Source: a virus. From it: a stretch of DNA of 56,517 nucleotides. Both the position numbers and the translations under genes were made by a program. Location: the IMG/VR virus record IMGVR_UViG_3300033150_002389; one strand, given 5' to 3'. Under the pieces are notes generated by a model. That model saw nothing but the letters and a program-made list of their open reading frames with translations. It was not told where the DNA came from and searched no databases. The first letter of the stretch is position 1, and every line of letters begins with the position of its first letter. Below, piece after piece: positions 1-47,562 of this stretch.

Positions 1-70
1 TTCGCAATCTCGTATCGCCCGAATCTCCCCGTCTTGCACTTCGGAGATCCGGGCCGGAAGTCCCCCACGC
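1..70. repeat. terminal direct repeat; bases 1-70 are identical to 56448-56517 (circular or terminally redundant genome, unique length about 56447 bp)
   Basis: exact 70-nt identity between window start and window end, read directly. Confidence 0.9.
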
Positions 71-3310: not shown

Positions 3311-3604
3311 TCATGCGGGGGATTCCTCTGGGGCGAACCCGGGTTGGTTACGGAGGTTCACCGCTTCAAGCACTGCAACAACGAATGAGTGATCTAGAAG
3401 GACACGTCGCGGCTCTCCGCTGGGAGGCTTCGAAACCGTTGCCGAGAAGTAGGTCCCTCCTTCGTGGATTTCAGTGCAGGTCATGTAGTAAACGGGATTG
3501 CCCCTTTCGTCTGTGGCCTTTTCAGCCAGATCACTTGCAAGGTACGGATACCGGGCGATGCGTTCATCAAGAATAACCGTGTATATCTTGAGCTTGTGGC
3601 TCAT
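3311..3604 (-). CDS. hypothetical protein
   Basis: ORF track; AAGGAGGA upstream of ATG at 3604. Confidence 0.5.
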   Translation of the reverse strand: MSHKLKIYTVILDERIARYPYLASDLAEKATDERGNPVYYMTCTEIHEGGTYFSATVSKPPSGEPRRVLLDHSFVVAVLEAVNLRNQPGFAPEESPA

Positions 3605-3646
3605 GACATCCTCCTTCGCTGGCTACGGGCCTGGAGAAGGGTTGCT

Positions 3647-3916
3647 ATGAAACGCCACCTAAGTCCCATGACAGAGAAAAACAGCCAAAACCTCAAGGTT
3701 TTCAGGTTCTTGCGCTCACTGGAGTCGCCTAAAGTTCCACTGGAAACAATTCTTACTCTTATCATCAGGTTCCAATGGAAATCAATAAGAAATTTCGCGT
3801 CAGACCTGGGGTTGAGCCATACCTCGGTGCTTCGCGCACTGAAGGGGAGGCCTGTGTCCGCCCGGGTGAAAGACAAGATTAGAGATGCCCTCGGGTTTAA
3901 CCCCTGGGCAGAATGA
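3647..3916 (+). CDS. small HTH DNA-binding protein
   Basis: internal ATG at 3647 of ORF 3464-3916; HTH-like IRNFASDLGLSHTSVLRALKG. Confidence 0.4.
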   Translation: MKRHLSPMTEKNSQNLKVFRFLRSLESPKVPLETILTLIIRFQWKSIRNFASDLGLSHTSVLRALKGRPVSARVKDKIRDALGFNPWAE

Positions 3917-4042
3917 AGCACGAAATAGGCGGGGGCGCAGCCCCCTGTGTGGTGGCAGAGGAATAGGCAGCGGTAGGCCCCCAACCCCCTATTGCGCTAT
4001 CCTCTGCCTCTCGCACCATGAAAACCCTACAGGAGGCCTTTC

Positions 4043-4249
4043 ATGGCTCACAACAATGAGGCCCGGGAGACGATCTCCGTCAGCATGCCGGGATGGCTGA
4101 TCGAGCAGCTTGATGCTGCCAGGAACAAGGTGTTCAGGTCTCGCAGCGATTTTGTTTGTGAGGCGATCCGCAAACACATCCTGGCCACGATGGACTCCCC
4201 GGACTTTTGGGAAAAAGTATGCCAGGAACCTGAGGATGAGTCTTATTAA
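4043..4249 (+). CDS. ribbon-helix-helix (CopG/Arc-like) DNA-binding protein
   Basis: AGGAGG 6 nt upstream of ATG; ISVSMPGWLIEQLDAARNKVFRSRSDFVCEAIRKHI matches RHH beta-alpha-alpha pattern. Confidence 0.55.
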   Translation: MAHNNEARETISVSMPGWLIEQLDAARNKVFRSRSDFVCEAIRKHILATMDSPDFWEKVCQEPEDESY

Positions 4250-4956: not shown

Positions 4957-5229
4957 TTGGTATATCAACTGAGAGACGGGATAGAGTTTTTGAAATCACT
5001 TCCTGATAATTCCGTTGACGGAATTTTCACAGACCCACCGTGGAAACGTGGAACCAAAAAAAAGACATCATTGAGGGGTGCTGATATTTATTTTGCCCCT
5101 TTTGGCTCTCCCTGGCCAAAGAAGATAAGAGGTTTCAAGCCACAAGAGTACTTGAAAGCGTCTACCGGTAAAGTCGCTGGAAAGCTAACCGAAGAGGACG
5201 TCCGCAAAGCCTATGAGTTAGTGGGGTAA
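4957..5229 (+). pseudogene. N-terminal fragment of an N6A/N4C DNA methyltransferase (motif IV DPPW only)
   Basis: LKSLPDNSVDGIFTDPPW is a typical methyltransferase N-terminus, but the ORF stops after 90 aa and no FxGxG motif follows. Confidence 0.4.
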
Positions 5230-5232: not shown

Positions 5233-6306
5233 ATGAGAGAATTCGGAAAAATCCACACAAGGTACTGGTCCTGGGCTCAAGCCCACAACCTCACGGACCA
5301 GGTCAAGCTGATAGGAGCATACCTCCTTTCATGTGAGCACGGGAACTCCTTAGGCTGCTTCCGGCTCCCAAGAAGCTACATTGCGGAGGATCTGGGATAT
5401 AGTGTGGACATCGTGTCCACATCATGTCGACACCTTGAAAAATTAGGTTTTTTGGAGTACTGCGAGACCTCAAAATTTGTGCTGATCAAAAAATACCTCA
5501 AATGGAACCCTCCAAAAAACGAAAGTCACGCCCAGGGAATCTTGTCTATGGTCTCACAAATTATTCCCTCATCCTTTACATTGCTGGAATCACTGATGGA
5601 ATCCCTCAGGAGGTACGGAGGGAAGCATCTTAAAAGACAAGATGTGGACACTTTGTATCACACCTTGTCCCCCATGGTGTCAACACAGTGTCCACAAAGT
5701 GTGGAGACAAAAGAGACAGAGACAGAGATAGAGAAGGAGATAGAGATAGAGACAAAGAAGGAGAAGGAGATAGAGAAGGAGAATATGAGGGCCGCACCTG
5801 CGGACCCTCCTCACCCTAAAAATTCAAAAAAATCCGAGGGAGAGAAATTTCACTTCAAAGTCAAGGTGCCACTCCCAAAGAATTTCTATCCCACCAGCGA
5901 GATGAAAGCTTATGCGAAAAGATATCACATGCCCGAAGAGGAGGTCCCCTTTCAATTCGAAAAGTTTAAAGCTCACCACCAAAAGCTCGAAAGTAAATTC
6001 AACGACTGGATCGCTGCGTGGAGGAACTGGGTGCTCAAGTGGGTGGAGTTCAATAAACCGACCAGCGGTCCGCCCCTCCAGGAGCCAGTACAGAGTTCAC
6101 GGTGTAAAGGTTGCGGAGCTACGAACGTGATGATCGATCTGGAAACCGGATTGTGCGCCAAATGCTTCAGGGCAGTGGCCGCCCCGGATCTAGCTGGACT
6201 GGTGGATAAAGCGACCAAAGGCATGGATATGAGCGAGGAGGAGCGATTGCAGCAGCTGAAAAAACAATCCGAACAGCTCAAATCAAAGGAGGTGCCCTAC
6301 GCATGA
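5233..6306 (+). CDS. hypothetical protein with winged-helix-like N-terminus, Glu-rich dipeptide repeat and C-terminal CxxC-x13-CxxC zinc ribbon; replication-initiator candidate
   Basis: ORF track; CKGCGATNVMIDLETGLCAKC zinc ribbon; position in early region. Confidence 0.5.
   Translation: MREFGKIHTRYWSWAQAHNLTDQVKLIGAYLLSCEHGNSLGCFRLPRSYIAEDLGYSVDIVSTSCRHLEKLGFLEYCETSKFVLIKKYLKWNPPKNESHAQGILSMVSQIIPSSFTLLESLMESLRRYGGKHLKRQDVDTLYHTLSPMVSTQCPQSVETKETETEIEKEIEIETKKEKEIEKENMRAAPADPPHPKNSKKSEGEKFHFKVKVPLPKNFYPTSEMKAYAKRYHMPEEEVPFQFEKFKAHHQKLESKFNDWIAAWRNWVLKWVEFNKPTSGPPLQEPVQSSRCKGCGATNVMIDLETGLCAKCFRAVAAPDLAGLVDKATKGMDMSEEERLQQLKKQSEQLKSKEVPYA
5708..5784. repeat. tandem hexanucleotide repeats (A[CTA][AG][GA]AG, about 11 units) inside the 5233-6306 gene
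   Basis: read directly: acagagacagagatagagaaggagatagagatagagacaaagaaggagaaggagatagagaaggag. Confidence 0.6.
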
Positions 6307-6704
6307 GGTTGCGGGCGACAGAGGAGCAGGTAAGCGAGTATATGGCCGAGTACAACCGGAAGATGGGGTTCGCTGAGACGAGAGAAGACCAGGAAGCGGA
6401 ACCCGGACCGGAGGGGCGTCTCCAAGGCAGGATAATGAAGTGGGCGAAGGACCGGGGGTACCCCTGCCAGTGAAACAGGCAGAGCGCTCGGGTCCGGGGG
6501 ATCCTGACACCTGGTTGGCCGGATTGAATGATTGCCATTGGGGGCGGCCGGTGGCTCGCCTTTGAGCTTAAGTCCAAGAGGGGGAGGTTGACCCCCGCAC
6601 AGAAGGCCATGAAGCTGAATTTTTCAAGGCTGGGTCACATCTACCCGGTCGTAAAAAGCTTTAGAGCGTTCTTAAAACTTTACGAGGAGAGGAGGAACAG
6701 GTGA
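6303..6704 (+). pseudogene. VRR-NUC-like nuclease frame with two in-frame TGA codons (6471-6473, 6525-6527); pseudogene or UGA readthrough gene
   Basis: single frame reads MRLRATEEQVSEYMAEY...IMKWAKDRGYPCQ-TGA-NRQSARVRGILTPGWPD-TGA-MIAIGGGRWLAFELKSKRGRLTPAQKAMKLNFSRLGHIYPVVKSF; PD...ELK resembles PD-(D/E)xK; start overlaps upstream stop as ATGA. Confidence 0.5.
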
Positions 6705-8549: not shown

Positions 8550-9110
8550 ATGGCAAAGAAAAAAGCGAGGAACCCAAAGCAAATAGCGTGGCTTAAAGCT
8601 TACCTCGACGAAGGCAGTCACACGTTCCTGAACGCCACCGCCTCGGCAATTGCCGCTGGCTATCGTGCCACCAGTCGACACAGCTTTGGGCAAATCGGGT
8701 ATCGGAACCGAAACCTGCTCGCCACCGAAATTGAGAGCTGGCTCGATGAGCATGGCTTTTCCGATAACCGCCTGAAACTCAAACTCCTCAATCTCATTGA
8801 GGCAAAGCAGACCGTCTTCCATAAACTCAAAGGCGTGATCAATGAGAAGGAACTACCCCAGGGCCACCGCTTAGTGGTCGCCTCAGAAGCGGGCGAGGAT
8901 CCCGGCGATTCGCTTATAGGGATCGACGTCGTTGCACTCGAGACTCAGCGCAGAGCCCTGGATATGGCTTTCAAAATCAAAGGCACATACGCCCCGGACA
9001 GGCACGAACACACCGGTAAAGATGGCAAGCCCATTGAGGTTGACGTAAGAGGTGAAATGAACCTCCAGGCACTCAATGAAGCCATCAAAAAAGACCAGGA
9101 AAACCACTGA
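8550..9110 (+). CDS. terS: terminase small subunit
   Basis: N-terminal NATASAIAAGYRATSRHS matches Terminase_2 signature; immediately upstream of the large subunit. Confidence 0.7.
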   Translation: MAKKKARNPKQIAWLKAYLDEGSHTFLNATASAIAAGYRATSRHSFGQIGYRNRNLLATEIESWLDEHGFSDNRLKLKLLNLIEAKQTVFHKLKGVINEKELPQGHRLVVASEAGEDPGDSLIGIDVVALETQRRALDMAFKIKGTYAPDRHEHTGKDGKPIEVDVRGEMNLQALNEAIKKDQENH

Positions 9111-9225: not shown

Positions 9226-10980
9226 ATGGAAAATGCGATAAGAAAACCGAGCAACCTTGAGTACGCAAGGCAGGCCTCCGAGTATCTGCCTTTTGCATCG
9301 TATAGCGGTGCACTCCGGATCTACAGGGAGATGCTCAACGACCCTCATCTCGACGAGCAAGTCCTGGCGATAGTAGGTCTGTATGACCGCTTTTTCCTCA
9401 TCACGCAAGTGCTGCGCTTGCAGTCAGTCATAAATCGCACGTGGCGCCCCGAGTGGCTGTACGAGCGGTGCAGGGAAGTTGAAGCTAATCCCGACGGGCA
9501 CCTGGACTTATGGGCACGGGAGCATTTCAAGACGAGTATCATGACCTTCGCAGGTGCAATCCAGGAAATAGCCAAGGACAGCCCGCTTTACCAGGTCTTC
9601 GACCCACCCGACGCCTACTTCCGGGGTCCAGGGCAAGAGATAACCATCGGCATCTTCAGCCACAATACAAAGATAGCGCGCGACTTCGTGGTGCGCGTGA
9701 AGCGCGAACTGGAAAACAATCCGCTCCTCCCGAGATTCTACCCCACGGTGTTCTGGGATCAGCCCAGGAAGCAAGCCCCGGTCTGGTCGAGAGACGACGG
9801 GCTCATCTGCAAGAGAGTTTCCAACCCGAACGAGGCAACCCTTTCCGGCTGGGGCCTAGTTGACGGCCTTCCCACCTCAAAGCACTTCAAACTCATGATC
9901 TATGACGACGTCGTCACGGAGAAATCGGTGACGACACCCGATATGATCCTCAAGACGACAGAGGCGTGGGAGCTCTCCGACTTCCTGTCGTCCCGTATAG
10001 ACGAGAAGACTCCGCCCAGAAAGTGGTACGTGGGAACGAGGTACAATTTTGCCGATACCTATGGGGTTATGTTGGAGAGGGAAGCTGCAACGCCCCGCAT
10101 TTACCCTGCGACCGATAGCGGGACCCCCGATGGGGCGCCGGTGCTGCTGAGCCCGAAGGAGTGGGAGAAGAAAAAGCGAGACAGCTCGCCACGGACGATC
10201 GCCTGCCAGATGCTCCTCAACCCACTGGCCGGCGAAGAACAGGAACTCAAGCCTGAGTGGATCCGCAGGTGGGAAATCAGGCCTGAAACCCTCAACGTGG
10301 CAATCTGTGTTGACCCGGCGTCCTCGAAGAAGAAAGAGTCTTGCAACTCCGCTTTTGCGGTCATTGGCATTGACGCAGCCTGGAACAAGTATCTGCTGGA
10401 TGGTGCGTGTCACAAGATGGATCTGGCAGCCAGATGGAGGATGCTCAAGTATCTGCGGAACAAGTGGATCAAGCAGCCAGGGGTCCAGACCGTCATGGTA
10501 GCCTATGAAAAGTACGGCATGCAGTCCGACATTGAACACTATGAGCAAATGATGCAAATCGAAAAGGCGGCATTTCCGATCACTGAAGTCTCATGGCCCC
10601 GCGATCGGACCCAGGGCGCAAAGGACGACAGGATTCGCCGCCTCATTCCCGACCACCAGAACTGGAAGTTCTTCTACCCCGAAGTGGAGTATGACCGGGT
10701 TGCAGATCAGTTTAATTTCAAGCCCCGGGCGACCAAGCTCCAGGCCGATGCCATCAAAAGAGGGAAGCCCTATCTTGTAGCAACCAGGATCATGCGTAAG
10801 GACGAGAACGGCGAGCTTTACAACGTGGTTGAGCGCGTCATCAAAAACGAGTATCTGTTTTTTCCCGCAACCACATGGAAAGACTTCCTGGACGCTATGA
10901 GCAGGATTTATGACCTGGATATGCGGCCGCCCCAGGTGGTGAGGGAGCAAGACACTTTACCGGAACCAGAGACCGATTAG
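9226..10980 (+). CDS. terL: terminase large subunit
   Basis: 584 aa; ATPase-like N-terminus and RNase-H-like nuclease motif VAICVDPASS...AFAVIGID; gene order terS-terL-portal. Confidence 0.75.
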   Translation: MENAIRKPSNLEYARQASEYLPFASYSGALRIYREMLNDPHLDEQVLAIVGLYDRFFLITQVLRLQSVINRTWRPEWLYERCREVEANPDGHLDLWAREHFKTSIMTFAGAIQEIAKDSPLYQVFDPPDAYFRGPGQEITIGIFSHNTKIARDFVVRVKRELENNPLLPRFYPTVFWDQPRKQAPVWSRDDGLICKRVSNPNEATLSGWGLVDGLPTSKHFKLMIYDDVVTEKSVTTPDMILKTTEAWELSDFLSSRIDEKTPPRKWYVGTRYNFADTYGVMLEREAATPRIYPATDSGTPDGAPVLLSPKEWEKKKRDSSPRTIACQMLLNPLAGEEQELKPEWIRRWEIRPETLNVAICVDPASSKKKESCNSAFAVIGIDAAWNKYLLDGACHKMDLAARWRMLKYLRNKWIKQPGVQTVMVAYEKYGMQSDIEHYEQMMQIEKAAFPITEVSWPRDRTQGAKDDRIRRLIPDHQNWKFFYPEVEYDRVADQFNFKPRATKLQADAIKRGKPYLVATRIMRKDENGELYNVVERVIKNEYLFFPATTWKDFLDAMSRIYDLDMRPPQVVREQDTLPEPETD

Positions 10981-11889: not shown

Positions 11890-12090
11890 ATGGCCTTTGA
11901 CTTCGAAAAATGGCTCGCTGGTCCAGAGAGAGAGGAGACACGGTTCCAGCACGACCCGCGCTACGACGCACTGCCAGAATCGATCAAGTTCATGTACAGC
12001 CCCGAAGAGTACGCTTGGCTAAGCGACGAGGAGAAGGCACACATTGTCGAAAGAGAATGTATGCCCGACCCGGATGAATTTGGAGGATAA
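11890..12090 (+). CDS. hypothetical protein
   Basis: internal ATG of ORF 11788-12090 after GGGGGAG. Confidence 0.3.
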   Translation: MAFDFEKWLAGPEREETRFQHDPRYDALPESIKFMYSPEEYAWLSDEEKAHIVERECMPDPDEFGG

Positions 12091-12094
12091 AAGC

Positions 12095-12640
12095 ATGAGA
12101 AAAAGTTTTAGGCTGTTTTTGGTCCTTGCCAGCATGCTCCTGCTAGCATGGGCGGGGGCTGGGTGTGTGACGACTAGCGAACAGCCCGCCCCAACTTCCC
12201 AATCTTTCGAGGGATCTCGTTTCCACTACGGCACCATACAGTTTATTCAGCGGACAGTATCAAACGGCATTCTGCGCAAAGGGATTACCGAAAAAACCAT
12301 TCTGCTGCCGGAAGGGGTGCCTGACTTTACTTCCTTTGGTCCTGGCGTAGATCAATATCCCGATGACATAGTTCACCAAATTATGTATCCAACAAAGCCG
12401 GGAGCCAAGTTCAGCAATTATAGCCACTACGCCTTCTTTGCATGGTTCCACCAAGGTGAATTTATCCCCATCGGAATTTATTACACGGACATAGGCGCAG
12501 ATCCAGGCGAAATGTGCTGGATCTATCAACGCAATGTTCCAGGGGAAGCCAGCCCTGAAGACATGCAGGCTCTTGTGAGTTATTACGCTGAGCGCGAAAA
12601 GGCAGTCAAGCAAGATCAGGCGAGTAAACACGGCTTATGA
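12095..12640 (+). CDS. putative lipoprotein
   Basis: GGAGG 8 nt upstream; MRKSFRLFLVLASMLLLAWAGAGC signal peptide with lipobox-like Cys. Confidence 0.5.
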   Translation: MRKSFRLFLVLASMLLLAWAGAGCVTTSEQPAPTSQSFEGSRFHYGTIQFIQRTVSNGILRKGITEKTILLPEGVPDFTSFGPGVDQYPDDIVHQIMYPTKPGAKFSNYSHYAFFAWFHQGEFIPIGIYYTDIGADPGEMCWIYQRNVPGEASPEDMQALVSYYAEREKAVKQDQASKHGL

Positions 12641-12808
12641 CCGCGATCCCCGACAAGACCCTCTGCACAAACAACGAGTGCTGGATCAGGCACGACTGCC
12701 TGAGGTACACCTCCGAGCCACAGAAAGGCTATCGTTATGCATACTTCGTGCCTCGTCGCGTTTTAGGGGCCACCCTTGATTGCAAGCACAAGATCCAGGA
12801 GACGAACA

Positions 12809-13315
12809 ATGGGTAACGTCATCATTGACCCCACAACAAAGAGTACCACCTCAATCAGGGCACGCAAGGACGGCAACGTCTACTCCGTTGATAAGCGAAG
12901 CACGCAGAATGCCATGGCCAAATTCGGCATTATTGTGAAGCCCAAAGAGGAGATAGGAATCGAAGTCAACCCCTACGCACCGGACGGAAACGCGGACTTG
13001 GCCGCCAGGGCGATGAAAGTCCTCGTCGATCACTACCCGGGCTACACATGGATCGTGGAGGTGGACGATAGGCCCAGTGTCGCATGCCTGAATGTCTATA
13101 ACCAGGACGTGAACGCAGCGCTTTTCTCCGGGGCGCCCTACGGCTACAGGATTTTCCTCAGCACGGCCTATGACGACCCGAACCTGAAATGCGTCATGCG
13201 GGCCGGCGGCGAAATCTTGGAGAGGGCGCGTCTTGTGCGAGGGCGAAATCGGGGTGAAGCCCCTATTGCAGTTGACGGGGTTCTCAATAAGCACCAGCCA
13301 CGGAGAGTGAACTGA
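12809..13315 (+). CDS. hypothetical protein
   Basis: AGGAG upstream of internal ATG of ORF 12776-13315; stop overlaps portal start. Confidence 0.45.
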   Translation: MGNVIIDPTTKSTTSIRARKDGNVYSVDKRSTQNAMAKFGIIVKPKEEIGIEVNPYAPDGNADLAARAMKVLVDHYPGYTWIVEVDDRPSVACLNVYNQDVNAALFSGAPYGYRIFLSTAYDDPNLKCVMRAGGEILERARLVRGRNRGEAPIAVDGVLNKHQPRRVN

Positions 13316-15360
13316 TGTTAGAAGCGCAAGCGCACGTATTGCAAGCAAGGGACGACGAGCGGGTGTGGGTGCAGATTGCTCAAGACGCCTACCAAAAGTC
13401 GACGACCTATGTTGACAATAATTACCGAAAACAGTGGGAAAACAATTATCGGCACTTCATGAGCCGGCACCACGCTGGCTCAAAATACTACAAGGCGTCC
13501 TACCTCTACCGCTCGAGGATCTTCCGACCGAAAACCCGTTCTGCTATCCGCAACAATGAGGCGGCTGCCGTTGCAGCGTTCTTCTCAAACCAGGATGTGG
13601 TCTCGATACAAAGCCAGAACACGAATGACCCGATGCAAAGAGCAAGCGCAGACATCGTGGAGGCACTTCTCCAATACAGGTTGACGAAAACTATTCCCTG
13701 GTTTTTGATTTGCATCGGCGCATATCAGGACTCGATGGTTCCCGGAGTGGTCTGTAGCTACCAGAGCTGGGAGTACGAAGAAGCTGAGAGGGTTGACCGA
13801 GTAGCCCTTGTTGACGCTGATAGAAACCCCGTACTGGATGGGGACGGTAAGCCTCAATATACAACTATCAAAGAAAAAAAGGTGATCAAGGACCAACCAG
13901 CAATCAGGCTCATACCCGTGGAAAATTTGCGCATAGACCCCGCAGCTGACTGGACGGACCCTATCAATTCGAGCCCCTACGTAATTGAGCTGATGCCGAT
14001 GTATATCATGGACGTGAAGTTCAGAATGAACGCCTCGGACCCGAAGACAGGCCAGCCCAAATGGCGCGAATTGCCTGACGAGGTCCTGAAGACAGCAAGA
14101 AGCCAAAGGTTTGACATTACCCGCCAGGCCCGTGAGGGGCAGCGGACGGACAGGATGGAGCCACAGGCGTCCAGCAAAGAGCTGGCCCTCTATGACATTG
14201 TGTGGGTCCATCGCAATATCATCAAAATTAAGCACCAGGATTGGGTCTATTACACGCTCGGCACGGAACATCTTCTCTCCGACCCCAAACCTCTGGAGCA
14301 GGTCTATTTCCATGGCGAGAGGCCCTACGTAATGGGCATCTCCGTGATCGAGGCCCACAAAATATATCCAAGCGGGTTGGGTCAGCTGGGAGAAGGTATT
14401 CAGAAGGAGATAAACGAAAACGCCAATCAAAGGCTTGACAATGTAAAGCTCGTGCTAAACAAGCGCTACTTCGTGAAAAGGGGATCCCAGGTGGACCTCA
14501 AGTCCCTCGTGCGAAACGCCGCAGGGTCAATCACGATGGTCAATGATATCAATGGCGACGTAAAGGAGATGGAGTTCAATGATGTAACCCGATCCTCGTA
14601 CCAGGAACAGGATCGGCTGAACGTTGATTTCGACGAAGTGGTGGGCAACTTCTCAGTGTCCACCATCCAGACCAACCGCCGGCTCAATGAGACCGTCGGC
14701 GGAATGAACCTGCTCAAGGGCAACACAAATGCTCTGACCGAATATGCGCTGCGCACATTTTCAGAGACGTGGGTTGAGCCTGTTATGCGACAGCTCGTTA
14801 AGCTCGAACAGAAGTATGAAACGGACACCACCATTTTGGCCATTGCCGCGGAAAAGGCCAACATCTTCCAGAAGTACGGCATTGACGAGGTGACCGACGA
14901 GTTGCTCAATCAGGAGCTAACGACGACCGTGAACGTTGGCATGGGCGCAACTGACCCCCTGATGCGGCTGCGGAACTTTACCTTTGGGCTTAGAATCATC
15001 CTTGAGGTGGTGACAAAGACGCCGCCCGGGTCGCTCAACGTTATGGAGGTAGCGAAAGAAGTATTTGGCTATCTGGGTTTCAAGGACGGGGAGAGATTTT
15101 TTGTCGAGCAGATGGGAGACGATCCAGAGAAGATGCAGATGGGCATGATTATTCAGCAGTTGCAGCTGGCAATCCAACGACTCCAGGAGCAGCTTGATTC
15201 CAAGATGGTTGACAATGAGACGAAGCTTATAGCTGCGAAGATGAAAGAGCAGGGTGAAGACAGACGCAAGCTTGCCGACATCCGAGCAAAGCTCGAAATG
15301 AAAGCCATGGACCTGCTGAACCCGGTCGTTGGCGAGACGGTGCCCGCGAATGCTCACTGA
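13315..15360 (+). CDS. portal protein (putative)
   Basis: 681 aa, position after terminase and before scaffold and capsid. Confidence 0.6.
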   Translation: MLEAQAHVLQARDDERVWVQIAQDAYQKSTTYVDNNYRKQWENNYRHFMSRHHAGSKYYKASYLYRSRIFRPKTRSAIRNNEAAAVAAFFSNQDVVSIQSQNTNDPMQRASADIVEALLQYRLTKTIPWFLICIGAYQDSMVPGVVCSYQSWEYEEAERVDRVALVDADRNPVLDGDGKPQYTTIKEKKVIKDQPAIRLIPVENLRIDPAADWTDPINSSPYVIELMPMYIMDVKFRMNASDPKTGQPKWRELPDEVLKTARSQRFDITRQAREGQRTDRMEPQASSKELALYDIVWVHRNIIKIKHQDWVYYTLGTEHLLSDPKPLEQVYFHGERPYVMGISVIEAHKIYPSGLGQLGEGIQKEINENANQRLDNVKLVLNKRYFVKRGSQVDLKSLVRNAAGSITMVNDINGDVKEMEFNDVTRSSYQEQDRLNVDFDEVVGNFSVSTIQTNRRLNETVGGMNLLKGNTNALTEYALRTFSETWVEPVMRQLVKLEQKYETDTTILAIAAEKANIFQKYGIDEVTDELLNQELTTTVNVGMGATDPLMRLRNFTFGLRIILEVVTKTPPGSLNVMEVAKEVFGYLGFKDGERFFVEQMGDDPEKMQMGMIIQQLQLAIQRLQEQLDSKMVDNETKLIAAKMKEQGEDRRKLADIRAKLEMKAMDLLNPVVGETVPANAH

Positions 15361-16920: not shown

Positions 16921-17168
16921 TAAGAATGGCGGAAGTAAAACCCGCTCTGATTGACTTGGAAGCCCGGGCGCGGGCGACAAGGCGCAAGCAACGCCACCCT
17001 AAAGGAGGGCGTGTGGGCAGCGTGAACGACTGAGCGAGCGGGCACTGGAGAGAAAATACCAATATCCAGTGATGCGACAGTCTGAACCCCGGCATAACGC
17101 CTCAAGAGAAACCGGGGAGGCTACCCCAACAGGGCGTCCGCCCATGCGGTCATGAAAGTAACAGATTG
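16921..17168 (+). ncRNA. putative group I self-splicing intron (248 nt, no ORF)
   Basis: preceded by U, ends with G, length 2 mod 3; P1, P3, P7, P8 and P9-like helices found by eye in canonical order (details in findings). Confidence 0.6.
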
Positions 17169-18056
17169 CAGTTTTGCGATGTAAAAGATGCAACGCAACA
17201 GGGGCTGAAAAAAGGCGATACGTTCCACTGGAATGTATACAGTGACGTTTCGACACAGGGCACGAAGCTCACTGAAACGAAAACCATGCCCGAAACACAA
17301 TTCACGATCACCCAGGGAACCTTGACCATTGATGAGTATGGCAATAGCGTTCCCTACTCCGGGAAGCTTGATAATCTTTCCGAGCACCCGGTCACGGAGA
17401 TCATCAACAAGGTCCTGAAGAATGACGCAAAGAAGGCCTTTGACATAGCGGCACATGCCCAGTTCAATGCCTGCGTTCTTCGCGTCGTTCCGACGGCTGG
17501 GACGTCTACCACGGCGGTTACTCTGACCACGAACGGAACCGCGACCCTGACCAACGACGTTGCCCTGAAGAAGCAGCACATTGGGCTGGTAGTCGACACC
17601 ATGAAGGAGCGGAACATCCCGCCCTACATTGAGGACGACTACTACGTACTCGCATGGCCGTCCACGTTCCGGCAGCTCAAAACGGACCTTGAGGGCGTCT
17701 ATCAGTATGTGACGCAGGGCTTCCAGCTCATCATGAACGGTGAGATTGGCCGGTACGACAATTGCCGTTTCGTGGAGCAGACCCAGATTCCGAAGGGCGG
17801 AGCGGCGGATTCCACAACCTGGGACGCCGATACGAAAACGGCCGATGCCTGGAACAAGGCCAAGAGCGACTGGGCGTTCTTCTTTGGGGAGGATACGGTC
17901 GCCGAGGCAATTGCGGTTCCCGAGGAGATGCGCGGGAAAATCCCCACAGACTATGGCCGGTCGAAGGGGGTAGCGTGGTATTACCTCGGGGGCTTCGGGA
18001 TCGTCCACACAGCGGCCGCCCAGTGTCGAATCCTCAAATGGGATTCGGCATCATAG
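17169..18056 (+). CDS. major capsid protein, exon 2 (295 codons)
   Basis: ORF track 17166-18056; position after scaffold; splicing would give ...LIKFR-QFCDVKDAT... Confidence 0.6.
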   Translation, partial: QFCDVKDATQQGLKKGDTFHWNVYSDVSTQGTKLTETKTMPETQFTITQGTLTIDEYGNSVPYSGKLDNLSEHPVTEIINKVLKNDAKKAFDIAAHAQFNACVLRVVPTAGTSTTAVTLTTNGTATLTNDVALKKQHIGLVVDTMKERNIPPYIEDDYYVLAWPSTFRQLKTDLEGVYQYVTQGFQLIMNGEIGRYDNCRFVEQTQIPKGGAADSTTWDADTKTADAWNKAKSDWAFFFGEDTVAEAIAVPEEMRGKIPTDYGRSKGVAWYYLGGFGIVHTAAAQCRILKWDSAS

Positions 18057-29709: not shown

Positions 29710-31242
29710 ATGAAAATGGCTAATTTTTTAGTGAATCCGCCGCCTGTCCCCTCAATAGGCAAGTCAATGCAAAACGCTTTAAGCCTGAAATACCTCCAGA
29801 CGAGGCAGGCATTGGCGGAGCGAGATTTGAGGGACGTAGGCAGAGCAGAGGAATACGAGAAGGCGAAACGAAGTCTGGATGCCTTTAACGCTTACATTGA
29901 CACCTATGAGAAAACCGGGAACAAGGACCTTGCTGACAAGGCCTTCAAGGCTTTGGAGCCAGATTCAGACCCTCCAGCTGAAACGTGGCGTATAGATAAA
30001 AACGACCGCCACTACACCTTTGCTGATGGCACCGAGGTAATTGGGGACCCCCAAGACGTCAAGACCGTGATGGAGGAACTCAGGCAGTATTTGCCCCAAA
30101 TTCACCAGAACCCGGAATACCAAGCCAGATTCTTTGATTTCGCAGCTGCACATAATGTCGGTATCAAGTTCGGTAAAGCTGGGGAAATTGAGCCCTTATA
30201 CGACACGGCTGAGCGGAGGGTTTATAACCTTCCCAAGGCGGAGGCTCGGGCGAAGAAAGCAGAAGATCCGGTGCGGTACCAGACCTATGATGAACGAATT
30301 GGAAAGAGGAAGAAGTGGGAGCCCTCCACCAAGGAAGAGTTGCTTGACCTTGAGGAAGCCAAGCAGAGAATCAGGGCAAAATACGAGCAGCCTGGATTGA
30401 CCCCGGCGCAAAAGAGCAGGCTGAACTTGCTCGAAGAGAAGGCAAAAGCAGAGATTGAAATAATACAGGCGTACCGCATGGGAGAAAAGGATCTTCAGGG
30501 CAACCCTGTTGTGCCTCCAGAACAGGCAGCGGCCGCAACTCGACGCCTCGAAGAAACCATGAAACAGATAGACCAAATCCGCGGCCAAAGACCAACCAAC
30601 GCTTTAGCTCAACCTACAGGAATAGCCCCTCGTGGAGCGCCTATAACGCCATCAGCATTACCGGAGGCTCCAAGAGCAACGGCACCTGCGGCGCCGACCC
30701 AACCGACTGCTGGCTCATTGTTTTCCAAGCTTGTCGCTATCCATGCCGAGCTACTCAAACAGGGCGTTGACCCTATGAGTCTTCCCAAGGTTCGGGCTGC
30801 AACAGAAGCTTACTTCAAGCAGAACCCGGAAGCGCAAGAGCGTTTTAGGGATGCCCTTAATGCCCAGCAGATTGAGGGTCCCCCTCCGGTTTCGCCAGAA
30901 GTCAACGCCATACGCCAGGAACTGCGCAAGGAGGCAACCCAGAACCTGACAATTGCTGAGGCGGCAAAAGAGATTGGGAAACGGCTTGTATCGGGCATGA
31001 GTCCCGAGCGCGCTGGCGCAGTAGCGGCAGAGTACCTCCCACTTTTACCGGAAGATGAAAAGGTGGTGGACTTCGACTCATTCAAGAAGTTCTTCAAGAA
31101 GGTGCGGAAGGCGGATAAGTGGACTGAGCAATACCTCCGGGAGGCCTTCAAGACCTATTGGAAAGGCTTGAATTGGGCTGGCAATGCCCTCTTGGGCATA
31201 AGGATTCCTGGAACAGCCGGACTCAGAAGCGAGGAGAAGTAA
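29710..31242 (+). CDS. internal virion / ejection protein (putative)
   Basis: 510 aa; position before the giant protein. Confidence 0.4.
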   Translation: MKMANFLVNPPPVPSIGKSMQNALSLKYLQTRQALAERDLRDVGRAEEYEKAKRSLDAFNAYIDTYEKTGNKDLADKAFKALEPDSDPPAETWRIDKNDRHYTFADGTEVIGDPQDVKTVMEELRQYLPQIHQNPEYQARFFDFAAAHNVGIKFGKAGEIEPLYDTAERRVYNLPKAEARAKKAEDPVRYQTYDERIGKRKKWEPSTKEELLDLEEAKQRIRAKYEQPGLTPAQKSRLNLLEEKAKAEIEIIQAYRMGEKDLQGNPVVPPEQAAAATRRLEETMKQIDQIRGQRPTNALAQPTGIAPRGAPITPSALPEAPRATAPAAPTQPTAGSLFSKLVAIHAELLKQGVDPMSLPKVRAATEAYFKQNPEAQERFRDALNAQQIEGPPPVSPEVNAIRQELRKEATQNLTIAEAAKEIGKRLVSGMSPERAGAVAAEYLPLLPEDEKVVDFDSFKKFFKKVRKADKWTEQYLREAFKTYWKGLNWAGNALLGIRIPGTAGLRSEEK

Positions 31243-31244
31243 AA

Positions 31245-34200
31245 TTGCCCAACCTCAATGCCCTCATTCAAAGCGCCGAACGGGAAGCACAAGCCGTTAC
31301 GGGCGTAAAAGCCAACGCCCTTACTACTGCAGCTAGCCCCTCAACCGAAGAAAAAGACTACCAAAATTACCTCCTTCAATACGCAGTAACAAACCCTGAA
31401 AATCCTGCCCACCATTACGACTATCGCTCTGCCTACAGGGCTGGCGTGAAACCGATTATGTGGGACGATCTACCCAAAGAGGTTAAAGAGGAGGATATCC
31501 AACAAGCAATTACAGGGGAACGGACTGGCCGCCCCATGTCGAGAGAAGAAGCAATCCAGTTTTACTCTGGTCATTACATGTGGCCCGACCAATTCAAGCT
31601 TCCCGGACACCCTGTACCGCCGAAAAAAGAGGCGATCAATGCCCTCATTGCGCAGGCAGCAGAAGAGGCCCAAGCCACATTGCAAGGCACGGAAACCGAG
31701 TATCATCCGTGGGGTGCCGCCAAGATGACAGTCTATGACGCGCTGTCTGGGCTTTCTGCGCTGCCGCGCACCATAGGCATGGGAGAGACCGCCCGCAATG
31801 TGGCTGAGTTCTACGATAAGCGGGCTGAAGCGGATCCGGATATCCGGGAATTCAAGAAGGCGTCCGAGCAAGGGCGGGAAAGTATATGGACTGAGGCACT
31901 GGGTTCCGCTGGCCCGACAGCCATGGCTCTGGGCATGAGATTCATCCCCTATGTGGGGTTTCCACTCGCAGCCTCTTATTTCTGGCACCTGAATAAAGAC
32001 GAGGTGAAGGACCTTGCGCTAGCAAAGGGTGCCGACGAAAAAACAGCGGAGAGGATTTCCTGGATAGGCGGCACCGTCAACTCTGCACTTGATGTCCTTG
32101 GCCTGGAGGCGATTGCTGGGAAAATGCCATTCCTTCGCGGGCCAGTGAAGAGCGTGAAGCACCGCCTGGTAGGTGCTGCAGTCCGCCTAATGGCCAGTAC
32201 AGGTGGCGAAGGTCTCACAGAGGGAATGCAGGAAGTCGTCGGCGAGCTATCGTCCGAATATGCGGCGAGCAAAGATGTCAGAGAATTTCTCGATCGAGTC
32301 AGCCAAAAGCAGTGGTGGGACAAAGCACTTGCCAAAGCTGAAAAGTCACTGAAAGTCGGCTCCATGATGGGGGCCGTCTTCGGTGGTGCTGCATCGGTGG
32401 CGGAAACCAGGCTTCAAAAGCGCCTTAAACCTGAGAAGGCAACCAAGCCCCTAGAGGCCCCGAAAGACCTGAGCGAGCTCATAGAAGAGGCTGAAAAAGA
32501 GTATACCGAAATCTTGCAACAGGAGGTGCCCCGTGATCGTAAAGAGGAAGAAAGGATATTACGTCGTGAGCGAGCACAAAGGCAAGGACGGAAAGAGGAG
32601 GAGGCTCGGCGGCCCGTACCCCACGAGGGAAGAGGCCGAGGAGAGGCTGGAGCAGGTGGAGTATTTCAAGGCCCGCAGCCGACACGCCCAACGGAAGAAG
32701 CGGTCCGCGTCGAGGAGGAATATCAGAAAGGAGACAGAGTAGAAACGCCGGAGGGCGCCGGCGAGGTCCTCAGGGTCGCGCCAGCGGAAACATCTGGGGA
32801 GGAAAAGCTGACAGTGAAGCTGGACGAGGGAGAAACTGTCGAGGTCTCTCCCGCCGAAGAGAAGGTGGAAAAGCCGTCCCCCCCACCGGAGGAAGTCGAC
32901 GAGGCGGCACAGGAAGCCGAGCCTGCCCCTACCGAGGCGCAGAAGGAAGCTGGCAATTACAAGAAGGGTCATATCAATATACAGGGGATGGATATCTCCA
33001 TTGAGAATCCAAAAGGTTCGATAAGGGAGGGCGTAGACAAGCAAGGGAAAAAGTGGAAATCAAAGGTCGCGGCCCACTATGGCTACATCAGGCGCACAGA
33101 GGGCAAAGACGGCGATCAGGTAGATGTCTTTATCGGCCCGCGCCCTGAAACCAACAGGGTATTCGTGATAGACCAGGTTGACCCAGAGACCGGCCTGTTT
33201 GACGAACACAAAGCGATGGTCGGTTTCCCTACGAAGAAGATGGCCAAGACGGCCTACCTCCGCAGCTACACCAAGGATTGGAAGGGCCTGGGGGCGATCA
33301 CGGAAATGACCGTCAATCAATTCAAAGATTGGATTAGGACGGGAGACTCGTCGGCGCCCCTGGGTCTTAAAGAAAAGCGCAAGGTAGCAAAGGACGCTAC
33401 ACGGGGGGCTGCCGGCAACCTGCTTATAAAGACCTCAGATCAGACGATCTACGAATCCAGGCAACCCGTTCACGCCCTGATGCTCGGCGAATTTGGCGTA
33501 AAGCCAGAAGATGTTATTGACACTGGCTTGATTGATAAAACCGGGAAAGAGATGTGGGCCGGCAGCAAAGAGATCAAGCCGCTAACTGAAGAAGTCGCCG
33601 CAGCTGTCCGAGAGCAGAGGAAGCGGGAGCAGCAGAAAAAGAGGGCGCAGCGCGCAGCTAAAGCCAAGACCTTTCGGCAATGGGTCGCCCTCACAGGGGG
33701 CATTAATCCCCAGGACAAGACCTGGCGTGGCGAAATCCGAGACATGCGCTATACAATGAATGCCGCCGGCAAAAAAGTTCCAGCGCCGGGCTGGCCAGTT
33801 GGCATTTGGAATCGCAAGGCAAGAGGCGTGGATGAGCGGACCCATGACGCTATTGAGGCCGGGTGGCTTCCCACAGCGGCTACAGAAGACGACTTCATGC
33901 AGGCCCTAGAGCAAAACATTACGACCAAAATAACAAAGGCTGGTGCCCAGGAAGATGTTGACACCGTCGTAAAAGAAGAGGAAGATAAGTTAGAGCAAGA
34001 GTACGAGAGGGAGCTGGCCCGCCTTAAGGTTAAAATCAAGGAGGAATGGGATGCCGGAGGACAAGAATACACACCCGCCGATCTCGAAGGAGCTGCGCGA
34101 GAGCTTGAAGCCTACCTTGCGGCGAATGAACGTGACGAGATTAAAGCTGCGAGTATTGAAGAACTTGAGGAAATCTGGCGTCTTTTCGACGAAGCAGTAA

Positions 34201-43175: not shown

Positions 43176-44396
43176 TTAGTTATCGCTTTCGGAGTGCCTA
43201 AATTTCTTTGCCACTTTTTTGCCACCCCTAGCATCGGAATAGATGGCCCTGAGGTCGTCTCCTTCCTCCCAGTAGTAGCGGTCAAATGCCTTGGTAGTGC
43301 TCCTCATCGAGCCATAGCGGATCTCCTCCGGGGTGCGGTATTTTCTGAGAGCCCTGGTGGTTGAGTGGGTAGTGCCCCCGTAGAGGTCCACTCCCTGGAT
43401 TCCGAGCTTGGCACAGGCCCGCTTCCACCACTTGTAAAAATGTTTCTCGCCGAATTGCCTCCCATTCTTATGGCGGAAGAAATAGGCGTCAGGATCTATG
43501 CAAGGGGGTAGGGCCCCCAAGATCTCCACGTCTTCGTCAATGAGATACACGATTTTGGACCTATTCTCCTTGGGGTGCCGTATCAGGATCTCTCTTGCCT
43601 TCAGGTTGATGTCCCCTTCCCGGATATTGCGCCATTCCTCGGGCCGCACGTTAAAGTAGGTGGTCATCCATTTGATGCCCAGCCAGGTCTTGTAGGGGGC
43701 CCACCCCTTCAGCGTATCCAAGATACCGAATTGGTCTGCCTTCGTAACAGTCTTTCGCCGGCGAAGCTCAAACTGGACCTTCGGGAACTTGGGCATTACC
43801 GAGATCTCATCATTATCGTAAAGCCACTTGAAGAACTGCTTAAGTGTCTGAATATAATTGAATTTGCTCTTATTGCTGACGTTATACTGGGTGAGAAAAA
43901 ACTGGAAGTCTTTCAGGCGCAGGCGTTTTACGCTGACAGGGCCAAAAACTCGAATCGCCTTCCAAATATGGTCTTCAAGGGCCCGATAGGTGTTTGGGCT
44001 GATGCCGTCCGGCCTGATCTCCGCCTCTCGGAGGCGGAGCCACTCATTGGCTAGATTTTCAAACCCAAGGGGATTATCAGCCCGATATTCCCTGGGGTCG
44101 AACGTTCCCTCATCCTCCTTGAACCTGAGGCCAGTGAGGCATTTTTGAGCGGCCTCGTAGCTCCTGAAACGCCGTGTGACCCCCCTGAAGTAGATCCGAA
44201 ACCGCCTGCTGGCCCTTTGCTCTGGATGGTTCGGGCAGAAGAGTCCCCTCCGACCATCATCTTTAAACCTGCCCCCGCATAAGGGGCACTTTTCATCAGA
44301 ATAGATTCCCCCTTTCATGCAATCGCCCCCAACCCCAGATTTGGCTGATACGGGGCCGATCTTACGTTGGTAAGGGGTAGATGTCAAGGAGGCCAT
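43176..44396 (-). CDS. int: tyrosine recombinase / phage integrase
   Basis: C-terminal HSTTRAL (HxxR) and AFDRYY catalytic Tyr region; adjacent to tRNA-like att sequence. Confidence 0.7.
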   Translation of the reverse strand: MASLTSTPYQRKIGPVSAKSGVGGDCMKGGIYSDEKCPLCGGRFKDDGRRGLFCPNHPEQRASRRFRIYFRGVTRRFRSYEAAQKCLTGLRFKEDEGTFDPREYRADNPLGFENLANEWLRLREAEIRPDGISPNTYRALEDHIWKAIRVFGPVSVKRLRLKDFQFFLTQYNVSNKSKFNYIQTLKQFFKWLYDNDEISVMPKFPKVQFELRRRKTVTKADQFGILDTLKGWAPYKTWLGIKWMTTYFNVRPEEWRNIREGDINLKAREILIRHPKENRSKIVYLIDEDVEILGALPPCIDPDAYFFRHKNGRQFGEKHFYKWWKRACAKLGIQGVDLYGGTTHSTTRALRKYRTPEEIRYGSMRSTTKAFDRYYWEEGDDLRAIYSDARGGKKVAKKFRHSESDN

Positions 44397-46587: not shown

Positions 46588-46741
46588 CCTCAGTCAGTTT
46601 CTCCAGGTATTCGTACAATTCAATGCCTATGGCCTCTATCAGCTCACGTTCTTGGTCTTTAGCCAAGTCATAGCTATTCTTGGGAGGCTCCGCCAGGATC
46701 TCATAGGGATCCCTGTCATCGTTGGATGAATAGGGTGCCAT
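46556..46741 (-). CDS. hypothetical small acidic protein
   Basis: ORF track. Confidence 0.3.
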   Translation of the reverse strand: MAPYSSNDDRDPYEILAEPPKNSYDLAKDQERELIEAIGIELYEYLEKLTEDAEAKAPSRV

Positions 46742-46765
46742 AAGCTTATTGCTTTCATTGGTTGG

Positions 46766-47342: not shown

Positions 47343-47361
47343 TCGCTTCCACCTACCTAAC

Positions 47362-47553: not shown

Positions 47554-47562
47554 ACCCCCTCC

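What the first reader, a model, noticed from the sequence alone, without database searches (positions are those of the whole stretch)
6303..6704. VRR-NUC-like nuclease gene with two in-frame TGA codons
A single frame from ATG 6303 to TGA 6702 gives a continuous VRR-NUC-like sequence, interrupted only by TGA at 6471 and 6525. Both internal TGAs are followed by A and sit where homologs usually have a hydrophobic or aromatic residue, often Trp, so each is one G-to-A change from TGG. Other genes in this genome end naturally at TGA (terS, portal), so this is not genome-wide recoding. The options are a recent pseudogene, a nuclease kept at very low level by UGA readthrough, or suppressor-dependent expression.
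Basis: partly seen in the sequence, partly recalled or inferred. Interest (0 to 1): 0.7.

Follow-up and report, generated by a model that had tools for sequence, protein, structure and literature searches.

The report
Phage nuclease gene with conserved UGAs
A phage DNA-junction-cutting nuclease gene carries two in-frame UGA "stop" codons that dozens of distant relatives share at the same positions, so they are decoded on purpose, most likely as selenocysteine, and the gene is not broken.

Summary
In detail: ATG 6303, in-frame TGA at 6471 and 6525, final TGA 6702, in a small VRR-Nuc (PD-(D/E)xK) nuclease of a complete temperate phage genome. It is not a recent pseudogene. TGA directly after the catalytic Asp (site 2) was confirmed at DNA level in 11 distinct genes. 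It is also implied for 53 truncated database proteins that end exactly at that Asp. In one subfamily 52 of 58 members have the stop. TGA at site 1 occurs in 4 genes. All 15 verified in-frame stops are TGA. Synonymous sites between lineages are saturated, yet the frame and the catalytic residues downstream are kept. UGA sites are followed by SECIS-like hairpins far more often than sense-coded sites (11/15 vs 6/42). No suppressor tRNA exists in the phage, and TGA ends other genes normally. Best reading: programmed UGA recoding, most likely selenocysteine insertion (about 0.55). The main rival is leaky Trp readthrough that throttles a toxic nuclease (about 0.25). I found no published precedent.

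The parts
6285..6294 (+). Shine-Dalgarno sequence AAAGGAGGTG for the nuclease gene
   Evidence: Read directly from the sequence. It lies 8 nt upstream of ATG 6303.
6303..6704 (+). VRR-Nuc (PD-(D/E)xK) nuclease gene, 133 codons including two in-frame UGAs. The start overlaps the stop of the DnaD-like gene 5233-6306.
6465..6467 (+). Cys55 codon (TGC) of the P-C-Q-[C/UGA] motif, two residues before site 1
   Evidence: This Cys is conserved in the subfamily.
6471..6473 (+). In-frame UGA, site 1 (end of strand beta1). It aligns with Cys/Ser/His in homologs. The same TGA is present in L014, L071 and L072.
6485..6500 (+). Short hairpin with a GGUC tetraloop (6491-6494) starting 11 nt after UGA site 1. 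It is weak here (-4.1 kcal/mol) and strong in L014 (-9.3). An alternative larger hairpin spans 6492-6524 (-10.8).
6522..6524 (+). Catalytic Asp74 codon (GAT) of the invariant (G)WPD motif
   Evidence: Asp in 164/165 homologs.
6525..6527 (+). In-frame UGA, site 2 (first residue of strand beta2, directly after the catalytic Asp). TGA was confirmed at this codon in 11 distinct genes.
6538..6565 (+). Stable hairpin downstream of UGA site 2 (-13.5 kcal/mol) with a GGU apical loop at 6550-6552, 22 nt after the UGA. This is the SECIS-like candidate.
6564..6572 (+). E88-L-K90 catalytic motif (GAG CTT AAG), downstream of both UGAs
6600..6602 (+). Gln100, the VRR-Nuc-specific conserved Gln that hydrogen-bonds the catalytic Lys in solved structures
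   Evidence: Gln in 159/165 homologs. PMC4103454.

Best explanation
The gene encodes a functional stand-alone VRR-Nuc nuclease. By homology it is a dimeric Holliday-junction or branched-DNA resolvase, placed between the replication and packaging modules of a temperate phage. Its two in-frame UGAs are conserved recoding sites, not lesions. Ribosomes must decode both to join the catalytic Asp74 (before UGA 2) with the E88-x-K90 and Gln100 residues (after it). The most likely decoder is the host selenocysteine machinery (tRNA-Sec and SelB), recruited by hairpins 16-22 nt downstream of each UGA. This would place Sec at two positions, the end of beta1 and the start of beta2. Relatives have Cys at those positions, next to the conserved Cys55, giving a Cys/Sec cluster beside the active site. 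Shown: conservation of the UGAs, purifying selection through and after them, UGA/Cys alternation, and excess downstream RNA structure specific to UGA-bearing genes. Inferred: Sec as the inserted residue, spatial adjacency of the two sites, and any redox or metal role. Because Sec decoding is inefficient, the arrangement would also keep the nuclease scarce.
For: (1) Recurrence. TGA directly after the catalytic Asp occurs in 11 distinct genes at DNA level. 53 of 57 truncated database proteins end exactly at that Asp and 4 end at 'PCQ'. In the PCQ-C-F subfamily site 2 is a stop in 52, Cys in 3 and Val in 3. (2) Selection. Between the five first-found lineages pS is 0.7-1.1 (saturated), while pN is 0.03-0.42 between the sites and 0.30-0.52 downstream. 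Window vs L014 have 16/17 identical residues between the UGAs with 10 synonymous differences. D, E-x-K and Q are retained. (3) UGA-specific. All 15 in-frame stops are TGA, whereas the natural terminators of the same genes are TGA 6, TAA 3, TAG 2. (4) Cys alternation. The nearest relatives read GAC TGT ACC (P0020) and TGT (L071) at site 2 and TGC/TGT at site 1. Site 1 {Cys/UGA} co-occurs with site 2 {Cys/UGA} in a 60/3/4/69 table (not corrected for phylogeny). (5) RNA. Nt +12..+42 after UGA are more structured than synonymous recodings: site 2 Stouffer Z -4.1 (n=11) and site 1 Z -2.7 (n=4). Sense-coded controls give Z -0.9 (n=31) and -1.15 (n=9); Mann-Whitney p about 5e-4 to 8e-4. A SECIS-like criterion taken from PMC10778597 and PMC1088965 is met at 11/15 UGA sites vs 6/42 sense sites (Fisher p 5e-5). 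GGUC tetraloops follow 3 of 4 site-1 UGAs, including the independently arisen one in L072, where amino-acid changes (AVA for AKG) create the stem. (6) No suppressor tRNA is present in the complete phage genome or in any related contig. (7) Two contigs are labelled Deltaproteobacteria and Dehalococcoidia MAGs; from general knowledge, Deltaproteobacteria include many selenoprotein-rich species.
Against: No nuclease selenoprotein is known. In the wider family both columns are variable (Cys only 9/165 and 13/165), unlike the conserved catalytic Cys/Sec of typical selenoproteins. 4 of 11 site-2 UGAs lack a hairpin of -7 kcal/mol or better, notably in the AT-rich L016 and L025. The window's own GGUC hairpin is weak (-4.1 kcal/mol, z 0.1). 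A 5-sequence consensus fold after site 2 is poor (-1.24 kcal/mol). No Rfam SECIS family matches. The two Cys-at-site-2 relatives also have the hairpin. The sense-coded controls are dominated by one other subfamily. Contig GC ranges from 39 to 60%, implying diverse hosts, while only about 20% of bacteria decode Sec (PMC10778597). Host Sec machinery could not be checked.
Confidence: 0.55

Rival explanations
1. Programmed leaky termination. Each UGA is read at a few percent by near-cognate Trp-tRNA (or Cys-tRNA) in competition with RF2. Full-length nuclease is then made at roughly 1e-3 to 1e-4 of initiations, a built-in throttle on a potentially toxic junction-cutting enzyme. The two sites were tolerated because both columns accept many residues.
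For: UGA is the leakiest bacterial stop: 1e-2 to 1e-3 (PMC4989110) and about 2-4% in an E. coli reporter via Trp-tRNA vs RF2 (PMC10570021). All 10 unbiased site-2 UGAs are followed by A, against 0.55 expected (p 0.0026). Both columns are substitution-tolerant, and site 2 accepts bulky Phe in 25/165. VRR-Nuc catalytic activity can be toxic in E. coli (PMC9635880). This works in any host, which fits the 39-60% GC spread. It needs no hairpin, which fits L016 and L025.
Against: It does not predict the excess downstream RNA structure specific to UGA-bearing genes. It does not predict the GGUC hairpin created by amino-acid changes in L072, or the tight Cys/UGA association at both sites. No sense-coded homolog has Trp at site 2 and only 2/165 have it at site 1. 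My literature searches found no bacterial or dsDNA-phage precedent for a conserved readthrough stop inside a catalytic core.
Confidence: 0.25
2. Dependence on a host-encoded UGA decoder other than the Sec system or ordinary tRNA-Trp. Examples are a suppressor tRNA(UCA), a 4-bp-anticodon-stem tRNA-Trp, or a tRNA-Cys(UCA). Expression of the nuclease would then be restricted to particular hosts.
For: UGA-reading tRNA-Trp variants are reported to be widespread in bacteria (PMC13092985). UGA aligned with Cys would also fit a Cys-inserting decoder. No decoder is carried by the phage itself.
Against: TGA terminates many other genes in the same phages. An efficient general suppressor would damage those genes. 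This model gives no explanation for the site-specific downstream hairpins. Hosts are unknown.
Confidence: 0.1
3. Non-functional remnant (pseudogene), or a split gene whose fragments are made separately by termination and reinitiation.
For: Gene callers split it. In the window an ATG directly follows UGA 2 (TGA ATG). The window's C-terminal part is somewhat more diverged than that of its relatives (pN/pS 0.57-0.73).
Against: The same codons are hit in 11 and 4 diverged genes, with no frameshifts or other stops. Synonymous saturation is combined with retained catalytic residues. The 17 codons between the UGAs have no start codon, yet 16/17 residues are conserved. In relatives the conserved beta2 residues lie between the UGA and the next possible start, so reinitiation would delete a core strand. 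Asp74 and E-x-K must sit in one PD-(D/E)xK fold.
Confidence: 0.05

Closest known systems
Bacterial selenoprotein genes with an in-ORF SECIS (e.g. E. coli fdhF)
   Same: An in-frame UGA is conserved with its flanks. Cys codons occupy the same position in close homologs. A hairpin with a small G-containing apical loop lies 16-37 nt after the UGA (criteria from PMC1088965 and PMC10778597), and several here have GGUC tetraloops. No dedicated tRNA is needed in the element itself.
   Different: The protein is a metal-dependent nuclease, not a redox enzyme. The UGA columns are variable across the wider family. There are two UGAs 54 nt apart. Some members lack a convincing hairpin. No Rfam SECIS model matches. 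The gene is phage-borne. Sec incorporation is untested.
Programmed UGA readthrough, as in RNA phage Q-beta coat/A1 protein (from my own knowledge) and viral readthrough generally (PMC7026636)
   Same: A UGA in a leak-prone context (A at +4) is conserved, and translation continues in the same frame.
   Different: Known cases append a C-terminal extension to a functional short protein. Here the stop(s) interrupt the catalytic core, so only the read-through product can be active. Up to two stops must be passed. This is a dsDNA temperate phage.
Stand-alone viral/bacterial VRR-Nuc proteins (stNUC, saNUC, psNUC; PDB 4QBN, 4QBL, 4QBO; PMC4103454)
   Same: The homolog model shares the fold (Foldseek top hits, probability 1.0, TM up to 0.76-0.79). 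It has the D...E-x-K...Q catalytic signature, a similar size of about 130 aa, and a phage context.
   Different: This subfamily has an extra N-terminal helix and a long beta1-beta2 loop. It has a P-C-Q-C motif and UGA codons. The window sequence itself is below the Pfam gathering score.
Stop-codon-recoded phages (TAG or TGA reassigned genome-wide, with phage suppressor tRNAs; from my own knowledge of Ivanova 2014 and Borges 2022)
   Same: In-frame stop codons occur in a phage gene that must be translated.
   Different: Only one gene is affected. TGA ends 16 of 50 large ORFs. There is no tRNA gene in the complete genome.

Membership tests
VRR-Nuc / PD-(D/E)xK nuclease (Pfam PF08774) | Match to the Pfam VRR_NUC model above its gathering score | tested here: not met
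   The window's conceptual translation scores 13.5 bits vs 23.8. However, 12 of 18 close homologs match at E<=0.01 (best 1.8e-8), and PHROG 93 'endonuclease' gives E 3e-13 over aa 5-130.
VRR-Nuc / PD-(D/E)xK nuclease (Pfam PF08774) | Catalytic signature: Asp, then E-x-K, plus the VRR-Nuc-specific Gln | tested here: met
   D74, E88, K90 and Q100 are present. These columns are conserved in 164/165, 161/165, 162/165 and 159/165 homologs. The role of the Gln is from PMC4103454.
VRR-Nuc / PD-(D/E)xK nuclease (Pfam PF08774) | [quoted passage not shown] | tested here: met
   The AlphaFold model of homolog P0001 (45% identical) has pLDDT 82. Foldseek top hits are 4qbn, 4qbl and 4qbo, then FAN1, Hjc and RecU. 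The window protein itself could not be submitted because of its stops.
VRR-Nuc / PD-(D/E)xK nuclease (Pfam PF08774) | Dimeric enzyme that cleaves four-way junctions | not testable with these tools
   This is a biochemical property of stNUC, saNUC and psNUC (PMC4103454). It is inferred here by homology only.
Bacterial selenoprotein gene | In-frame UGA with conserved coding sequence on both sides | tested here: met
Bacterial selenoprotein gene | At least two Cys-containing homologs, and TGA/Cys pairs in more than 50% of homologs at that column (PMC1088965) | tested here: inconclusive
   Met within the PCQ-C-F subfamily: site 1 is Cys in essentially all members, and site 2 is stop 52 plus Cys 3 of 58. 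Not met across the wider family: Cys 9/165 and 13/165.
Bacterial selenoprotein gene | Stable hairpin just downstream, with a small apical loop containing G, 16-37 nt from the UGA (PMC1088965, PMC10778597) | tested here: inconclusive
   11/15 UGA sites pass vs 6/42 sense sites (Fisher p 5e-5). There is excess structure over synonymous recodings. In the window, site 2 passes (-13.5 kcal/mol). Site 1 passes only through a larger hairpin, and its GGUC hairpin is weak. 4 of 11 site-2 cases fail. There are no Rfam SECIS hits.
Bacterial selenoprotein gene | Host carries selA/selB/selC/selD, and selenium is incorporated | not testable with these tools
   Hosts are unknown. There are only two MAG labels, Deltaproteobacteria and Dehalococcoidia, and the genome scans were exhausted.
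Programmed stop-codon readthrough | Leak-prone stop codon and context, conserved | tested here: met
   15/15 in-frame stops are UGA. A at +4 in 10/10 unbiased site-2 cases. UGA leakiness is from PMC4989110 and PMC10570021.
Programmed stop-codon readthrough | Near-cognate tRNA inserts an ordinary amino acid; short and long products are both made | not testable with these tools
   This needs a reporter assay or mass spectrometry. Trp is absent from these columns in sense-coded homologs.
Stop-codon-recoded phage (alternative genetic code) | Many genes with in-frame recoded stops, and the stop codon not used as a terminator | tested here: not met
   Only this gene is affected. TGA ends 16/50 large ORFs. 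Related contigs are gene-dense under the standard code.
Stop-codon-recoded phage (alternative genetic code) | Phage-encoded suppressor tRNA | tested here: not met
   ARAGORN finds no tRNA in the complete genome or in 14 related contigs.

The most novel reading that the evidence does not exclude
These phages encode the first selenoprotein nuclease family. Selenocysteine sits directly after the catalytic Asp and, in some members, also at the end of beta1. With the conserved Cys55/Cys57 it forms a selenylsulfide, diselenide or metal-binding cluster beside the active site. This cluster would make Holliday-junction resolution redox- or selenium-dependent in anaerobic hosts. It would also be the first example of a bacteriophage exploiting the host SelB/tRNA-Sec system.
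Probability: 0.35. Interest if true: 0.9.

Novelty: new variant of a known kind. Interest (0 to 1): 0.8.

Why it matters
Automatic annotation splits these genes into fragments. At least 57 truncated entries were seen here, so a whole subfamily of phage resolvases is being miscalled as broken. If the UGAs encode selenocysteine, this would extend selenoproteins to nucleases and to bacteriophages. It would also show that phages tap the host Sec machinery. If the UGAs are instead leaky stops, this is a rare prokaryotic case of conserved readthrough used to dose a dangerous enzyme, placed inside the catalytic core and not at a C-terminus. Either way it gives a compact, testable recoding cassette: a UGA plus about 45 nt. 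It also argues that conserved in-frame UGAs in viral metagenomes should not be discarded as pseudogenes.

Tried and rejected
1. A single-sequence search of the 5.8-billion-protein database with the conceptual translation found nothing. A two-sequence profile was needed.
2. Exact-protein look-ups of the two flanking genes gave no record.
3. Twelve TerL-related IMG/VR loci share only packaging and head genes and have no nuclease homolog.
4. GTDB genome scans with TerL and with the nuclease profile found nothing.
5. IMG/VR scans for the exact 'GILTPGWPD' and 'CQxNRQ' peptides found nothing.
6. Metagenome hit L015 was a chance match in an ABC-transporter intergenic region.
7. A PDB sequence search gave only spurious HECT-domain hits.
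8. Whole-region RNA folding around the UGAs was no better than dinucleotide shuffles. The signal only appeared with a synonymous-recoding null and sense-codon controls.
9. The apparent conservation of synonymous sites just after UGA 1 is significant only against the flanking codons (p 0.002), not against the whole gene (p 0.085), so I do not rely on it.
10. Covariation in the four-sequence hairpin alignment is suggestive but not significant (72/500 shuffles).
11. Other candidate in-frame-TGA genes in the window (3464-4249 and 12044-13315) contain several mixed stops and are simply separate ORFs.
12. Genome-wide recoding, a phage suppressor tRNA, split-gene reinitiation and a recent pseudogene were considered and rejected, as set out under the rival explanations.
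13. Literature searches found no report of in-frame UGAs in VRR-Nuc genes or of phage-encoded bacterial selenoproteins. This shows absence from that library only.
Full report
**1. What is in the window**

ATG 6303 opens a frame that runs to TGA 6702-6704. It is interrupted only by TGA 6471-6473 and TGA 6525-6527, each followed by A. The ATG overlaps the stop of the upstream DnaD-like replication gene (ATGA) and is preceded by a strong Shine-Dalgarno, AAAGGAGGTG at 6285-6294.

The window's first and last 70 nt are identical, so it is a complete, circularly closed phage genome of about 56.4 kb. Its gene content is:

- integrase, 43176-44396 on the minus strand
- an HTH regulator
- the DnaD-like gene, 5233-6306
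- small terminase, 8550-9110
- large terminase, 9226-10980
- portal, 13315-15360
- major head protein, 17166-18056

It has no tRNA gene. TGA ends 16 of its 50 large ORFs. A scan for other ORFs bridged by in-frame TGA found none. The anomaly is therefore confined to this one gene.

**2. Family**

The conceptual translation is below the Pfam VRR_NUC threshold (13.5 vs 23.8 bits). It does match PHROG 93 'endonuclease' in a single stretch, aa 5-130, across both TGAs (E 3e-13).

A profile search recovered 16 full-length homologs at 33-47% identity, and 12 of the 18 aligned sequences hit VRR_NUC. An exhaustive HMMER search found 5,783 cluster representatives at E<=1e-3.

Asp74, Glu88, Lys90 and Gln100 are near-invariant across the family. 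[quoted passage not shown] Its best structural matches are the stand-alone VRR-Nuc proteins 4QBN, 4QBL and 4QBO, followed by FAN1, Hjc and RecU.

Those stand-alone proteins are dimeric Holliday-junction resolvases (PMC4103454). In the model, site 1 is the last residue of beta1. Site 2 is the first residue of beta2, immediately after the catalytic Asp.

**3. The TGAs are conserved, not accidental**

A metagenome contig, L014, is about 50% identical at protein level and has TGA at both positions. Between the two TGAs, 16 of 17 residues are identical despite 10 synonymous differences.

L016, L017 and L025 have TGA at site 2 and TGC (Cys) at site 1. Among these five lineages synonymous sites are saturated (pS 0.7-1.1). 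Non-synonymous divergence is 0.03-0.42 between the sites and 0.30-0.52 downstream, and all catalytic residues are kept.

A profile of the N-terminal parts then recovered 94 proteins, of which 57 are truncated. 53 of those end exactly at the catalytic Asp ('...PCQCFRQSxKAxGFLVPGWPD'). The other 4 end at '...PCQ', and one of them is the window's own 56-aa fragment.

I sampled the DNA of seven of these proteins; their contigs gave six further distinct genes with a site-2 stop and two further genes with a site-1 stop (L072 has both). Every stop was TGA, and the frame always continued through E-x-K and Gln to a normal end. The totals are 11 distinct genes with TGA at site 2 and 4 with TGA at site 1.

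All 15 in-frame stops are TGA. The natural terminators of the same genes are TGA 6, TAA 3 and TAG 2. In the PCQ-C-F subfamily site 2 is a stop in 52 members, Cys in 3 and Val in 3.

A recent pseudogene is therefore excluded. Split-gene reinitiation is also excluded. Conserved beta2 residues lie between the UGA and the next possible start, and the inter-UGA segment has no start codon.

**4. What the UGAs replace**

Across 165 sense-coded homologs the residue counts are:

| Site | Residues |
|---|---|
| Site 1 | His 67, Ser 41, Ile 14, Cys 9, Trp 2 |
| Site 2 | Leu 56, Ile 26, Phe 25, Val 20, Cys 13, Met 10, Trp 0 |

The nearest relatives have Cys:

- P0020 reads GAC TGT ACC where L014 reads GAC TGA ACC.
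- L071, the window's closest relative, has TGA at site 1 and TGT at site 2.
- L072 has TGA at site 1 inside a subfamily where that position is an almost invariant Cys.

Cys/UGA at site 1 co-occurs with Cys/UGA at site 2, in a 60/3/4/69 table. That table is not corrected for phylogeny.

**5. RNA structure**

Bulk folding was unremarkable, and a five-sequence consensus fold after site 2 was weak. I then compared each sequence with synonymous recodings of its own protein, for nt +12..+42 after the codon:

| Set | n | Stouffer Z |
|---|---|---|
| UGA at site 2 | 11 | -4.1 |
| UGA at site 1 | 4 | -2.7 |
| Ile-coded family members (site 2) | 31 | -0.9 |
| Sense-coded site 1 | 9 | -1.15 |

The Mann-Whitney test of UGA site 2 against the Ile controls gives p of about 5e-4 to 8e-4.

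I also applied an explicit SECIS-like rule: a single hairpin of -7 kcal/mol or better, an apical loop of 3-8 nt with G in its first two positions, and 16-37 nt between the codon and the loop. The criteria come from PMC10778597 and PMC1088965. The rule is met at 11 of 15 UGA sites and at 6 of 42 sense sites (Fisher p 5e-5).

Three of the four site-1 UGAs are followed by a GGUC tetraloop hairpin. In L072 the stem exists only because the protein reads AVA where its relatives read AKG. In one subgroup an 8-bp stem is 94% paired, with one CG/AU/GU pair, but four sequences are too few for significance.

Caveats:

- 4 of 11 site-2 cases fail the rule, namely L016, L025, L072 and L076.
- The window's own GGUC hairpin is weak (-4.1 kcal/mol), although its site-2 hairpin is strong (-13.5).
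- Both Cys-at-site-2 relatives also carry the hairpin.
- No Rfam SECIS family matches.
- Many of the Ile controls belong to a single other subfamily.

**6. Mechanism**

That the UGAs are decoded, and are kept by selection, is well supported. I rate this at about 0.9. Which decoder acts is an inference.

Selenocysteine best explains four things together:

- the stops are UGA only
- UGA alternates with Cys at both sites
- both sites sit in a Cys-rich local context (Cys55, site 1, site 2)
- downstream hairpins appear specifically where UGA appears

Sec decoding needs no phage tRNA, which fits the absence of tRNA genes. Two contigs carry Deltaproteobacteria and Dehalococcoidia MAG labels.

The main rival is leaky readthrough by Trp-tRNA. 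This runs at about 2-4% per UGA in E. coli (PMC10570021), and UGA is the leakiest bacterial stop (PMC4989110). Readthrough would throttle a potentially toxic nuclease (PMC9635880). It fits the A at +4 (10/10 vs 0.55 expected, p 0.0026), the tolerance of both columns to substitution, and the wide GC range of the contigs (39-60%). It does not predict the hairpins or the Cys pattern.

The two readings are not exclusive in effect, because inefficient Sec decoding would also keep the enzyme scarce. My estimates are:

| Explanation | Probability |
|---|---|
| Selenocysteine insertion | 0.55 |
| Near-cognate (Trp) readthrough | 0.25 |
| Another host UGA decoder | 0.10 |
| Non-functional or split gene | 0.05 |

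**7. Novelty**

I found no report of in-frame UGAs in VRR-Nuc genes, of conserved readthrough inside a catalytic core in a dsDNA phage, or of a bacteriophage-encoded selenoprotein. The components are known: UGA recoding and VRR-Nuc resolvases. The combination, and its prevalence in a whole subfamily, appears new, so I rate it a new variant of a known kind and of high interest.

Noticed in passing
window 1-70 and 56448-56517: The first 70 nt are repeated exactly at the end of the window. The window is therefore a complete, circularly closed (or terminally redundant) phage genome of about 56.4 kb. A 56-aa database protein identical to the nuclease N-fragment (P0192) comes from a JGI contig of 56,561 nt, probably the same or a near-identical phage.
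   Followed up: partly
window 4957-5229 (+): A 90-aa ORF carries the DPPW motif of a DNA methyltransferase but covers only positions 18-84 of a 192-position PHROG profile, and it ends at TAA. It looks like a genuinely truncated methyltransferase, in contrast to the nuclease.
   Followed up: no
L001 4694-7421 vs window 9257-10952: The closest TerL relative (83% identity) has about 1 kb of extra DNA inside its terminase gene relative to the window. This could be an intron, an intein or a homing-endonuclease insertion.
   Followed up: no
window 31158-40205 (+): A single ORF of 3,015 aa lies in the tail region, followed by an 855-aa ORF. It is unusually large for a 56-kb phage.
   Followed up: no
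L076 9779-9997, L077 4546-4764, L078 9779-9997: In one related phage the gene immediately upstream of the UGA-containing nuclease hits Pfam Acb2_Tad1_hairpin, an anti-CBASS/anti-Thoeris sponge family.
   Followed up: no
window 44929-52681 (-): The minus-strand early region encodes a helicase (ResIII/Helicase_C), a DHH/DHHA1 (RecJ-like) protein, an SMC_N/SbcC-like ATPase of 767 aa and a calcineurin-like phosphoesterase (SbcD/Mre11-like). The phage therefore carries an extensive recombination toolkit alongside the resolvase.
   Followed up: no
L071 729-731 and L068 5265-5267: The two relatives with a Cys codon (TGT) at site 2 still have a strong SECIS-like hairpin downstream (-14.8 and -15.7 kcal/mol). 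This could be a relic of a recent UGA-to-Cys switch, or a sign that the hairpin is not tied to UGA decoding.
   Followed up: partly
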